In this document: positions 2,896-3,138 of the stretch, piece after piece
Numbering within the stretch: the stretch's first letter is position 1
How the letters are laid out: every line of letters begins with the position of its first letter
Origin: a virus
Lineage: Monodnaviria; Loebvirae; Hofneiviricota; Faserviricetes; Tubulavirales; Inoviridae
Strand: one strand, 5' to 3'
Virus record (IMG/VR): IMGVR_UViG_2698536355_000001
DNA: 5,101 nt
Made by a program: the position numbers and the translations under genes
The notes under the pieces: model-generated
Databases searched by the model: none
What the model saw: the letters and a program-made list of their open reading frames with translations, nothing else
Told to the model about the DNA's origin: nothing

Positions 2896-3138
2896 ATGAA
2901 AGTCATTTCTGTTATTAAATCTAAAATTGCTGTGGCTTCAACCGCACTTTTTGTTTCTGCAAGTTGTTTTGCTGCTGATGGCGCAACGGGTAGCACTGAC
3001 TATGCAGGTCAGGCAATGGATTCACTGCTGACTCAGGCAAACGATCTTATTGCAAAAGTATGGCCTGCTGTTGTCGCTGTCGTTGGTGCGGGTCTTGCCA
3101 TTCGTTTGTTTAAAAAGTTCTCTTCGAAAGCAGTTTAA
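2896..3138 (+). CDS. gVIII: Major coat protein pVIII precursor, 80 aa, with signal peptide
   Basis: GGAG Shine-Dalgarno 8 nt upstream. N-terminal signal peptide ending ...SASCFA, then an acidic N-terminal segment, a hydrophobic core and a basic C-terminus. The C-terminus IRLFKKFSSKAV matches the recalled IKe/I2-2 coat end and is close to M13 IKLFKKFTSKAS. Confidence 0.92.
   Translation: MKVISVIKSKIAVASTALFVSASCFAADGATGSTDYAGQAMDSLLTQANDLIAKVWPAVVAVVGAGLAIRLFKKFSSKAV

What the first reader, a model, noticed from the sequence alone, without database searches (positions are those of the whole stretch)
2896..3138. Coat protein is closest to the IKe/I2-2 type, suggesting a conjugative-pilus-specific lineage
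The mature coat C-terminus ...VWPAVVAVVGAGLAIRLFKKFSSKAV is nearly identical to my recollection of the IKe coat (...TWPVVTTVVVAGLVIRLFKKFSSKAV), and more distant from M13. IKe and I2-2 infect cells bearing IncN or IncI2 pili. A relative of such phages fixed in a genome by IS1 suggests past phage pressure linked to a conjugative plasmid in this host.
Basis: partly seen in the sequence, partly recalled or inferred. Interest (0 to 1): 0.45.

Follow-up and report, generated by a model that had tools for sequence, protein, structure and literature searches.

The report
IKe-like coat gene, dead prophage

Summary
ORF 2896-3138 is a gene VIII major coat protein. The mature protein is 64-65% identical to IKe and I2-2, 72% to Erwinia phage PEar1, and 47-48% to M13 and If1. 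All other structural and assembly genes rank the same way.

The element is not new. It is a variant of the "UPΦ" prophages (Shapiro & Putonti 2020). These have an IKe/I2-2-like structural module, integrate at the chromosomal dif site in tandem, and share genes II and V with YpfΦ.

The window is a whole 5.1-kb contig of an E. coli draft assembly, so part of its IS1 framing comes from the assembly breaking at repeats. The copy is defective: gene III is frameshifted at 3642 and gene I is cut by IS1 after 4997.

The coat protein says nothing about the receptor. The adsorption protein does carry a domain homologous to IKe's N-pilus-binding domain, but at 49% identity. That is no closer than PEar1, which infects Erwinia. 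Published attempts to infect IncI-bearing strains failed. In samples of complete E. coli genomes, carriers were not visibly enriched for IncI2 or IncN transfer genes. Integration is at dif, not through IS1.

The parts
1..90 (+). Right end of an IS1 copy (3' end of insB plus the terminal inverted repeat). It also forms the left end of the contig.
   Evidence: 96-98% identical to IS1 in phage P1 and other records. The same junction occurs in complete chromosome GCA_977064715.1, where the IS1 is flanked by an 8-bp duplication CAATTTTT. The window is all of contig CYAM01000110.1.
91..4997 (+). Fragment (4.9 kb of a 9.08-kb unit) of a UPΦ-like filamentous prophage that integrates at dif.
   Evidence: 99.9% identical to the intact tandem prophage of E. 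coli SCPM-O-B-12142, with 2 differences. 100% identical to the copies in GCA_977064715.1.
162..584 (-). 140-aa predicted membrane protein, an accessory gene of unknown function.
   Evidence: ORF. No Pfam match. 88-96% identical in UM146, L008, L026, L027 and L028.
683..1129 (-). 148-aa helix-turn-helix protein, a putative phage repressor transcribed divergently from gene II.
   Evidence: Pfam HTH_3 (1.4e-9) and Phage_CI_repr. 98.6% identical in the 9.6-kb circular element L008. The repressor role is inferred by analogy with the RstR-like YPO2273 gene of YpfΦ.
1301..2353 (+). Gene II, the rolling-circle replication initiator. A probable in-frame gene X start lies at 2039.
   Evidence: Pfam Phage_CRI (2e-72) and G2P_X_C. 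57% identical to I2-2 pII and 26% to IKe pII. The gene X start is inferred from the sequence and from the I2-2 annotation.
2365..2682 (+). Gene V, the single-stranded-DNA-binding protein.
   Evidence: Pfam PF17426 (1.6e-51). 41% identical to I2-2 pV; no meaningful alignment to the pV of IKe, PEar1, M13 or If1.
2685..2771 (+). Gene VII, a minor coat protein of 28 aa.
   Evidence: 64-68% identical to IKe/I2-2/PEar1 and 33-41% to M13/If1. Pfam Inovirus_G7P_2 is recorded for this gene.
2771..2866 (+). Gene IX, a minor coat protein of 31 aa.
   Evidence: 48-58% identical to IKe/I2-2/PEar1 and 26-32% to M13/If1.
2896..3138 (+). Gene VIII, the major coat protein precursor (the finding). The predicted signal peptide is 2896-2973 (26 aa, ending CFA|A), the mature 54-aa protein is 2974-3135 and the stop codon is 3136-3138. 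This copy carries V58A (T>C at 3068) in the otherwise invariant WPVV motif.
   Evidence: The cleavage site is inferred by alignment with the annotated IKe signal and mature peptides.
3148..3173 (+). GC-rich hairpin (7 bp) with a U-rich tail just after gene VIII; probably a transcription terminator or attenuator.
   Evidence: Centroid fold of -12.1 kcal/mol with a modest z-score of -1.8. IKe has an annotated stem-loop terminator in the same position. The simple terminator scan did not call it, so this is inferred.
3185..4428 (+). Gene III pseudogene (adsorption protein). A 1-nt deletion at 3642 shifts the frame. The first ORF (3185-3763) keeps the whole pilus-binding-type domain. The TolA-binding domain is broken.
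   Evidence: Alignment to the intact 414-aa copy. PDB 4EO0 and 4EO1 hits. Pfam PF21443. The same frameshift allele is on 82 contigs.
4428..4769 (+). Gene VI, a minor coat protein of 113 aa.
   Evidence: 52-57% identical to IKe/I2-2/PEar1 and 32-37% to M13/If1. Pfam DUF5455.
4770..4997 (+). 5' fragment of gene I (76 of 364 codons), cut by IS1. The reading frame runs on into IS1 to a stop at 5022-5024.
   Evidence: 76/76 identical to the intact pI N-terminus. This exact fusion protein is on record in a single contig.
4998..5101 (+). Left end of a second IS1 copy (inverted repeat plus the start of insA), in the same orientation as the first. It also forms the right end of the contig.
   Evidence: 100% identical to IS1 of phage P1 (H34). 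This junction is absent from all related loci examined.

Best explanation
Bases 2896-3138 are gene VIII of a filamentous (Inoviridae) prophage. The gene encodes an 80-aa precursor. By analogy with IKe and Ff, the precursor is inserted in the inner membrane, its 26-aa signal peptide is removed, and thousands of copies of the 54-aa helix polymerise around the single-stranded DNA. The four C-terminal basic residues (R44, K47, K48, K52) would face the DNA. A Trp-Pro kink and a Tyr-Trp stacking pair would pack neighbouring subunits, as in the IKe virion.

The phage is a variant of the UPΦ group. It combines an IKe/I2-2-type structural and assembly module with an I2-2/YpfΦ-type replication module and a divergently transcribed HTH repressor. 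It sits at the chromosomal dif site next to hipBA as a tandem repeat.

In this E. coli lineage the prophage is dead. Gene III is frameshifted and an IS1 lies in the left accessory region. In this strain a second IS1 also truncates gene I.

Shown here: gene identities, module relationships, dif location in relatives, and the inactivating lesions. Inferred: the coat assembly mechanism (from conservation of IKe's structural residues), XerCD as the integrating enzyme, and entry through TolA.
For: - Coat family and rank order of relatives.
- IKe's structurally important residues are Tyr9, Trp29, Pro30, Ile42, Arg43, Phe45, Lys46, Lys47, Phe48 and Lys51 (PMC6431161). All are conserved at a +1 offset in the window's mature protein. 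M13 and If1 lack the Pro and the Tyr.
- The whole structural module is IKe/I2-2-like: pIII 55-56%, pVI 52-57%, pI 63-65%, pIV 73-75%. Against M13/If1 these are 29-37%, 32-37%, 55-56% and 49-52%.
- gII and gV resemble I2-2 only (57% and 41%).
- Intact 99.9%-identical tandem copies lie next to hipBA, with hybrid dif-like junctions GGTGCGCATAATGTACG.... An exact dif site bounds the UM146 relative.
- The published UPΦ description matches: dif, tandem repeats, closest to I2-2/IKe, gII/gV shared with YpfΦ (PMC7307601).
- Lesions: the 1-nt deletion at 3642 and V58A, and the IS1 junctions and target duplication.
- The host is E. coli and the window is a whole contig.
Against: - The intact relative lacks the two accessory genes (h1, h2) that Shapiro & Putonti used as core markers of UPΦ viruses. 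It is also only about 83-84% identical in DNA to the UM146/UPΦ901-type element. It is therefore a sister variant, not the described phage.
- No UPΦ901 sequence was available for direct comparison. UM146 was used as a proxy because its gene III linker has the GGGES repeat reported for UPΦ901.
- Expression, processing and assembly of this coat protein were not tested and cannot be tested here.
- The rest of the host assembly could not be read. It is unknown whether the missing prophage parts survive on other contigs.
Confidence: 0.9

Rival explanations
1. One reading: this lineage depends on IncN- or IncI2-type conjugative pili, so the prophage records past phage pressure tied to such a plasmid in this host.
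For: - pIII has a full-length homologue of IKe's N-pilus-binding domain, a fold described as unique to IKe (my recollection of Jakob et al. 2012; not read here), followed by a TolA-binding domain.
- The only complete E. coli genome with an intact, 99.9%-identical prophage also carries an IncI2 plasmid. Only 5.5% of genomes carry IncI2 transfer genes.
- That plasmid's virB10 and relaxase genes are disrupted by IS3-family elements. Loss of pilus function is what pilus-specific phages would select for, but this is speculative.
- All four UPΦ901 carriers of Shapiro & Putonti had IncI plasmids.
- IncN R46 and the IncI2 plasmid both encode VirB-type transfer systems with TrbC/VirB2-family pilins.
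Against: - The pilus-binding-type domain is only 49% identical to IKe's. That is no closer than PEar1 (54%), which infects Erwinia amylovora.
- UPΦ901 did not infect IncI-bearing strains, including JE-1.
- Overlap between the 54 carriers and the listed samples of IncI2 carriers (about 108 of 298) and IncN carriers (60 of 216) was one genome, against about 1.1 and 0.6 expected by chance.
- The same structural module occurs in Izhakiella and Rosenbergiella.
- The coat protein itself carries no receptor information.
- Plasmid content of the window's own strain could not be examined.
Confidence: 0.25
2. The lineage enters through another primary receptor, such as a chromosomally encoded pilus or surface structure, or through TolA alone at low efficiency. 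Its likeness to IKe would then reflect common ancestry, not shared receptor use.
For: - The N-terminal domain is the fastest-diverging folded part of pIII in this group: 83% between the SCPM and UM146 types against 89-92% for the other folded domains, and 54% between IKe and PEar1 against 85-90%. This fits receptor switching.
- No enrichment of IncI2 or IncN was seen among carriers.
- The module has a wide host spread, including Erwiniaceae.
- The TolA-binding domain is well conserved (74% to IKe).
- YpfΦ, another dif-integrating enterobacterial filamentous phage, infects plasmid-free laboratory E. coli and has no identified receptor (PMC4266046).
Against: No candidate alternative receptor was identified. 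The co-occurrence test sampled only part of the plasmid-bearing genomes and says nothing about plasmids present at the time of infection.
Confidence: 0.45
3. The element is a CUS-1/YpfΦ-type prophage. This was my own first guess, from the dif location and the UM146 host.
For: It has the same integration site, tandem arrangement and divergently transcribed HTH regulator. UPΦ901's gII and gV are reported as more than 85% identical to YpfΦ's. The window's gII and gV are 95% identical to those of L008, a circular element with a non-IKe structural module.
Against: UPΦ and YpfΦ are reported to share less than 20% identity outside gII and gV. L008 has no detectable homologue of the window's pVII, pIX, pVIII, pIII, pVI or pI. 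The window's structural genes are clearly IKe/I2-2-like.
Confidence: 0.03

Closest known systems
UPΦ viruses (UPΦ901; Shapiro & Putonti 2020, Virus Evolution 6:veaa030)
   Same: Both are filamentous prophages of Enterobacterales integrated at dif as tandem repeats. Both have structural genes closest to I2-2/IKe and a gII/gV module of the YpfΦ type. Both have reverse-oriented accessory ORFs on the left, and extrachromosomal circular forms exist. The UM146 prophage has the GGGES linker reported for UPΦ901 and is 83-84% identical in DNA to the window.
   Different: The window/SCPM type lacks the h1 and h2 genes. It carries a 369-aa ORF and an 82-aa ORF instead, and a 148-aa HTH regulator where UM146 has a 60-aa ORF. 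Its gene III linker has [10 protein letters not shown] repeats like IKe. The window copy is also defective.
Phages IKe and I2-2 (genus Lineavirus)
   Same: Gene order is the same: II-V-VII-IX-VIII-III-VI-I-IV. The coat keeps IKe's Tyr/Trp-Pro/basic-tail residues. pIII has the same architecture: pilus-binding-type domain, TolA-binding domain, Gly-rich linker and C-terminal anchor. gII and gV resemble I2-2 specifically.
   Different: Protein identities are only 52-75%. IKe and I2-2 do not integrate and have no dif-like site, repressor or accessory ORFs. The pilus-binding-type domain is 47-49% identical, so shared receptor use is unproven.
Erwinia phages PEar1/2/4/6
   Same: These have the closest coat protein among isolated phages: 72% mature identity and 22/26 in the C-terminal segment.
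   Different: They are IKe-like in gII and gV (26% and no real alignment to the window), do not integrate, and infect Erwinia amylovora.
YpfΦ / CUS-1
   Same: Both integrate at dif as tandem repeats, and the replication and regulatory module is related.
   Different: The structural and assembly module is unrelated. This comes from the literature and, by proxy, from L008.
Ff (M13/fd/f1) and If1
   Same: They share the overall class I coat design and gene order.
   Different: Coat identity is 47-48% and the Trp-Pro kink and Tyr are absent. pIII is 29-37% identical and has no homologue of the IKe-type N-terminal domain.

Membership tests
Inovirus major coat protein (Pfam PF19199 Phage_coatGP8; class I, IKe type) | Sequence match above the curated family threshold | tested here: met
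   70.7 bits against a cut-off of 24.6, covering profile positions 2-69 of 69.
Inovirus major coat protein (Pfam PF19199 Phage_coatGP8; class I, IKe type) | Signal peptide with an AxA-type cleavage site, an acidic N-terminus, a hydrophobic core, and four basic residues in the C-terminal tail | tested here: met
   ...SASCFA|ADGATGSTDY...; the tail IRLFKKFSSKAV holds R, K, K and K; aligned to the annotated IKe signal and mature peptides.
Inovirus major coat protein (Pfam PF19199 Phage_coatGP8; class I, IKe type) | IKe-specific structural residues: Tyr9, the Trp29-Pro30 kink, Arg43, Lys46, Lys47 and Lys51 | tested here: met
   All are conserved at a +1 offset. M13 and If1 have Trp-Ala and lack the Tyr.
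Inovirus major coat protein (Pfam PF19199 Phage_coatGP8; class I, IKe type) | The protein forms the virion sheath | not testable with these tools
   This needs virion protein analysis. The window's own copy is in a defective prophage.
Lineavirus-type structural module (IKe/I2-2) | All structural and assembly proteins are closer to IKe/I2-2 than to Ff/If1 | tested here: met
   The 7-gene identity table shows this without exception.
Lineavirus-type structural module (IKe/I2-2) | pIII has an IKe-type N-terminal pilus-binding domain followed by a TolA-binding domain | tested here: met
   PDB 4EO0 at E 1e-27 (residues 20-128), 4EO1 at E 1e-25 (residues 130-195), and PF21443 at 87 bits. The window's own gene is frameshifted inside the TolA-binding domain.
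Lineavirus-type structural module (IKe/I2-2) | Non-integrating, strictly episomal life cycle | tested here: not met
   Relatives are chromosomal, at dif and in tandem. The element therefore should not be filed as an IKe/I2-2-like phage in life style.
Lineavirus-type structural module (IKe/I2-2) | Infection depends on IncN or IncI2 conjugative pili | tested here: inconclusive
   Domain homology exists but identity is only 49%. No enrichment of IncI2 or IncN among carriers in partial samples. One suggestive co-occurrence. Published infection attempts with IncI hosts failed.
UPΦ viruses (Shapiro & Putonti 2020) | Integrated at dif as a tandem repeat | tested here: met
   This holds for identical or near-identical copies in complete genomes. 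It cannot be seen in the window itself, which is a contig bounded by IS1.
UPΦ viruses (Shapiro & Putonti 2020) | Structural genes closest to I2-2/IKe, with gII and gV of the YpfΦ type | tested here: met
   Structural genes. For gII and gV, 95% identity to L008, a circular element with a non-IKe structural module. A direct YpfΦ comparison was not possible.
UPΦ viruses (Shapiro & Putonti 2020) | Presence of the two conserved hypothetical genes h1 and h2 downstream of gene IV | tested here: not met
   tblastn with the UM146 h1 and h2 proteins found nothing in the intact SCPM-type unit. That region is absent from the window. UM146's two ORFs downstream of gene IV were taken as h1 and h2 from their position; the identical proteins (same accessions) are annotated in the Salmonella circular form L009.
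CUS-1/YpfΦ | YpfΦ-type morphogenesis and secretion genes | tested here: not met
   The literature reports less than 20% identity outside gII and gV. The proxy L008 shows no homologues of the window's coat genes.

The most novel reading that the evidence does not exclude
The SCPM/window-type phage may be a temperate, dif-integrating filamentous phage whose primary receptor is the VirB-type conjugative pilus of IncI2 (and perhaps IncN) plasmids. If so, chromosomal remnants like this one would record past carriage of such plasmids, and resident phage would select for transfer-defective plasmids. SCPM-O-B-12142 would fit: it holds the intact phage and an IncI2 plasmid whose virB10 and relaxase genes are disrupted by IS elements. 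A side possibility is that the widespread frameshift allele still exports the N-terminal pilus-binding-type domain, which could interfere with pili or superinfection.
Probability: 0.2. Interest if true: 0.5.

Novelty: new member of a known kind. Interest (0 to 1): 0.2.

Why it matters
The practical value is correct annotation. This is the coat gene of a decayed UPΦ-like prophage, not a sign of anything unusual. The case also shows that the IS1 framing of a short draft contig should not be read as biology without a closed genome.

The one open and testable question is what receptor this widespread group of dif-integrated, IKe-like prophages uses. If it is a conjugative pilus, these phages would link chromosome-borne prophages to plasmid ecology, including the IncI2 plasmids that spread mcr-1 (the mcr-1 association is from my own knowledge; not checked here). 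If it is not, the IKe-type 'pilus-binding' domain has a broader receptor repertoire than its name implies.

Tried and rejected
- I first took the element for CUS-1/YpfΦ because it sits at dif next to hipBA and occurs in UM146. I rejected this after reading the UPΦ paper and after finding that L008 shares only the regulation and replication module.
- Gonzalez et al. 2002 (PMC135385) and Bradley et al. 1983 (PMC217486) are not held. Statements about IKe on IncI2 hosts therefore rest on the citation in PMC7307601 and on my own knowledge.
- An exact search for the left IS1-phage junction in the species-representative genomes found nothing. The host was identified instead through exact-protein look-ups.
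- UM146 was not found in the supplementary files of the UPΦ paper.
- A complete carrier-by-plasmid contingency table could not be built because only 60 rows are listed per search. I used 'best' and 'spread' samples.
- The pilins of IncN R46 and the IncI2 plasmid show only a marginal local match (9/22 residues). This gives no sequence-level reason for a shared receptor.
- The simple terminator scan did not call the hairpin after gene VIII, and its fold z-score is modest.
- Rfam found no RNA family in the window.
- The minus-strand ORFs overlapping gene VIII (2892-2996 and 2921-3040) have no support and were treated as chance ORFs.
- The large protein searches and structure prediction were not used, because sequence-level matches to solved IKe domains were already decisive.

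Full report
**What is in the window**

The 5,101-base window holds a compact filamentous-phage gene set on the + strand:
- gene II, 1301-2353
- gene V, 2365-2682
- gene VII, 2685-2771
- gene IX, 2771-2866
- gene VIII, 2896-3138
- gene III, 3185-4428, in two reading frames
- gene VI, 4428-4769
- the first 76 codons of gene I, 4770-4997

A helix-turn-helix regulator (683-1129) and a 140-aa membrane ORF (162-584) lie on the minus strand. Pfam confirms the assignments: Phage_CRI and G2P_X_C, Putative_G5P, Phage_coatGP8, G3P_pilus-bind, DUF5455 and HTH_3. Bases 1-90 and 4998-5101 are the right and left ends of IS1, in the same orientation. Rfam finds nothing.

**Checking the observation**

- tblastn against 50,697 phage records at E<=0.01 returns only Erwinia phages PEar1/2/4/6 (60%, E 5e-12), I2-2 (57%, 1e-10) and IKe (57%, 2e-11). 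No Ff or If1 record appears.
- With signal peptides removed, the mature 54-aa protein is 72% identical to PEar1, 65% to I2-2, 64% to IKe, 48% to M13 and 47% to If1.
- Over the last 26 residues the scores are 22, 20, 20, 15 and 15 out of 26, in the same order.
- The IKe cryo-EM structure singles out Tyr9, the Trp29-Pro30 kink, Ile42, Arg43, Phe45, Lys46, Lys47, Phe48 and Lys51 (PMC6431161). All are present here at a +1 offset. M13 and If1 have Trp-Ala and no Tyr.
pVII, pIX, pVIII, pIII, pVI, pI and pIV are all closer to IKe/I2-2/PEar1 than to M13/If1. For example, pIII is 55-56% against 29-37%, and pIV is 73-75% against 49-52%.
- Genes II and V resemble I2-2 only (57% and 41%), not IKe (26% and no real alignment).

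**What the element is**

- A megablast against 5,426 complete E. coli genomes finds a 99.9%-identical element in strain SCPM-O-B-12142. There it is a 9.08-kb unit present twice in tandem next to hipBA, with intact gene III (414 aa), gene I, gene IV and accessory ORFs.
- Relatives about 84% identical in DNA occur in UM146, F11 and others. In UM146 an exact dif site bounds the right end.
- The SCPM copies are bounded on the left, and separated from each other, by a hybrid site GGTGCGCATAATGTACG.... This is the XerC arm of dif (my identification from the known E. coli dif sequence) joined to phage sequence.
- This matches the 'UPΦ viruses' of Shapiro & Putonti (PMC7307601). They are dif-integrated tandem prophages of E. 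coli, Salmonella, Klebsiella, Citrobacter koseri and Yersinia enterocolitica. They are most closely related to I2-2 and IKe, share genes II and V with YpfΦ, and carry extra accessory ORFs.
- UM146 has the GGGES linker repeat reported for UPΦ901. The window/SCPM type has [10 protein letters not shown] repeats, lacks UM146's h1 and h2 genes, and carries other accessory ORFs. It is therefore a sister variant, not the described phage.
- My initial idea that it was CUS-1/YpfΦ was wrong for the structural module.

**The group is mosaic**

- A 9.6-kb circular element from E. coli TUM14759 (L008) shares the HTH regulator, the 140-aa ORF, pII and pV at 95-99% protein identity. Its structural module is unrelated.
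- Contigs from Izhakiella australiensis and Rosenbergiella gaditana share the structural module (coat 90%) but not gII or gV.
- A 7.9-kb circular form exists in Salmonella.

**State of this copy, and the IS1 question**

- The window is the whole of contig CYAM01000110.1 from E. coli draft assembly GCA_001284805.1. It ends in IS1 on both sides because short-read assemblies break at multicopy repeats.
- The phage part differs from the SCPM copy at two positions. T>C at 3068 gives V58A in the otherwise invariant WPVV motif of the coat. A 1-nt deletion at 3642 frameshifts gene III inside the TolA-binding domain.
- Both changes and the left IS1 recur on about 80 contigs of other E. coli assemblies. 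These include the complete chromosome GCA_977064715.1, whose two tandem copies are 100% identical to window 91-4997.
- In that chromosome the left IS1 is flanked by an 8-bp target duplication (CAATTTTT), so it is a simple insertion. Genes I and IV are intact there.
- The IS1 in gene I (after 4997) is on record only for the window's contig.
- The order of events is therefore: integration at dif, inactivation of gene III and a first IS1 insertion (relative order not resolved), then, in this strain only, a second IS1 in gene I. IS1 did not 'fix' the phage.
- Whether the remaining prophage parts survive on other contigs could not be checked.

**How the coat protein most likely works**

The following is inferred from conservation of the IKe residues and from established Ff/IKe biology. 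The 26-residue signal peptide targets the precursor to the inner membrane and is removed after ...CFA. The 54-residue helix then assembles around the single-stranded DNA. Its acidic N-terminus faces outward and R44, K47, K48 and K52 line the DNA-facing lumen. A GC-rich hairpin with a U-rich tail lies 10 nt after the stop codon (3148-3173). It occupies the position of IKe's annotated terminator, although a simple scan did not call it. In this strain the gene is probably a relic, because without pIII and pI no virions can be completed.

**The receptor inference**

The coat protein does not choose the receptor; pIII does.
- The intact pIII has residues 20-128 homologous to IKe's N-pilus-binding domain (PDB 4EO0, E 1e-27; PF21443, 87 bits). 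Residues 130-195 are homologous to IKe's TolA-binding domain (4EO1, E 1e-25). A Gly-rich linker and a C-terminal anchor follow. Architecture therefore supports an IKe-like two-step entry.
- Domain identities argue for caution. The N-terminal domain is 49% identical to IKe's. IKe and I2-2 are 91% identical in it. PEar1 is 54% identical to IKe in this domain although the rest of its pIII is 85-94% identical, and PEar1 infects Erwinia amylovora.
- For UPΦ901 the authors proposed IncI pili, because all their carriers had IncI plasmids. They could not infect IncI-bearing strains, including the I2-2 host JE-1.

- The structural module is in 54 of 5,426 complete E. coli genomes.
- IncI2 transfer genes are in 298 genomes and IncN (R46) transfer genes in 216.
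- Among about 108 IncI2 carriers and 60 IncN carriers that could be listed, only SCPM-O-B-12142 is also a phage carrier. Chance predicts about 1.1 and 0.6.
- This excludes a strong present-day association. It is a partial sample and says nothing about plasmids present at the time of infection.

The one co-occurrence is still worth noting. The only genome with the intact phage carries an IncI2 plasmid, and that plasmid's virB10 and relaxase genes are interrupted by IS3-family elements.

**Verdict**

The finding is a correct identification of an ordinary thing. It is the major coat gene of a defective member of a described group of IKe/I2-2-like prophages that integrate at dif. The conjugative-pilus reading is a reasonable hypothesis. 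It was already raised in the literature, and the evidence here neither demonstrates nor excludes it. The IS1 part of the story is a misreading, helped by contig ends. Interest is low. The only part worth following is the unresolved receptor of this prophage group.

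Noticed in passing
window 3642 (gene III); window 3185-3763: A 1-nt deletion frameshifts gene III. The resulting 192-aa ORF keeps the signal peptide and the whole pilus-binding-type domain but breaks the TolA-binding domain. The same allele is on about 82 contigs of E. coli assemblies, so it is inherited and not a sequencing error.
   Followed up: yes
window 3068 (coat codon 58): T>C gives V58A in the WPVV motif next to the Trp-Pro kink. IKe, I2-2, PEar1, UM146 and SCPM all have Val at this position. The variant travels with the gene III frameshift in the same E. coli lineage.
   Followed up: partly
L025 (NZ_CP144929.1, IncI2 plasmid of SCPM-O-B-12142), about 8428-10879 and 32084-37164: The only complete genome with the intact, near-identical phage carries an IncI2 plasmid. 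Its VirB10 gene and its relaxase-like gene are each interrupted by an IS3-family element, so the plasmid is probably transfer- and pilus-defective.
   Followed up: partly
window 683-1129 (-); L029 5782-6150 (pYDC107_41): The prophage HTH regulator is 62% identical in protein to an HTH gene next to a resolvase on about 41-57 kb conjugative plasmids. One 135-nt stretch is 90-91% identical in DNA. The one plasmid examined is MOBP/MPF_T. The plasmids come from E. coli, Salmonella and Shigella. This suggests past exchange between the phage regulatory module and such plasmids.
   Followed up: partly
L008 (NZ_CP128883.1, 9,565-bp circular 'plasmid'): This is a circular filamentous-phage-like element. 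It shares the window's HTH regulator, 140-aa ORF, gII and gV at 95-99% protein identity, but its structural and secretion module is unrelated. It is probably of the CUS/YpfΦ type, which was not verified.
   Followed up: partly
L027 (Izhakiella australiensis), L028 (Rosenbergiella gaditana), L026 (MAG labelled Candidatus Nanosynbacter): The same IKe-like structural module (coat 84-90%, pIII 81-84%) occurs in two Erwiniaceae species with a different replication module. It also occurs on a contig binned to a Saccharibacteria MAG, which is almost certainly a binning error. The Izhakiella contig is 8.3 kb with a 336x coverage tag, which suggests a replicative form.
   Followed up: no
L013/L019 (GCA_001285805.1, CYBP01000067.1): In a sister assembly the left IS1 joins the prophage directly to the hrpA-aldA-gapC-cybB region instead of to the 369-aa ORF and hipBA. 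This suggests an IS1-mediated deletion or rearrangement near the terminus.
   Followed up: no
H98 (NZ_CP092647.1, E. coli EC5502): This chromosome shows 14 separate matches to the structural module, far more than the usual 1-2. It may hold a long tandem array or many fragments.
   Followed up: no
L001 10855-11964 (-) and 19199-19447 (+): The intact SCPM-type unit has a 369-aa ORF and an 82-aa ORF with no Pfam match, where UM146-type elements carry other accessory genes (h1, h2, a zinc-binding protein). These are variable cargo slots at both prophage ends.
   Followed up: partly
H72/H134 (NZ_CP141085.1, 385-kb plasmid of E. coli KE48): Part of a related prophage (regulatory region to mid gene III, 85% identity) lies on a large plasmid instead of the chromosome.
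   Followed up: no
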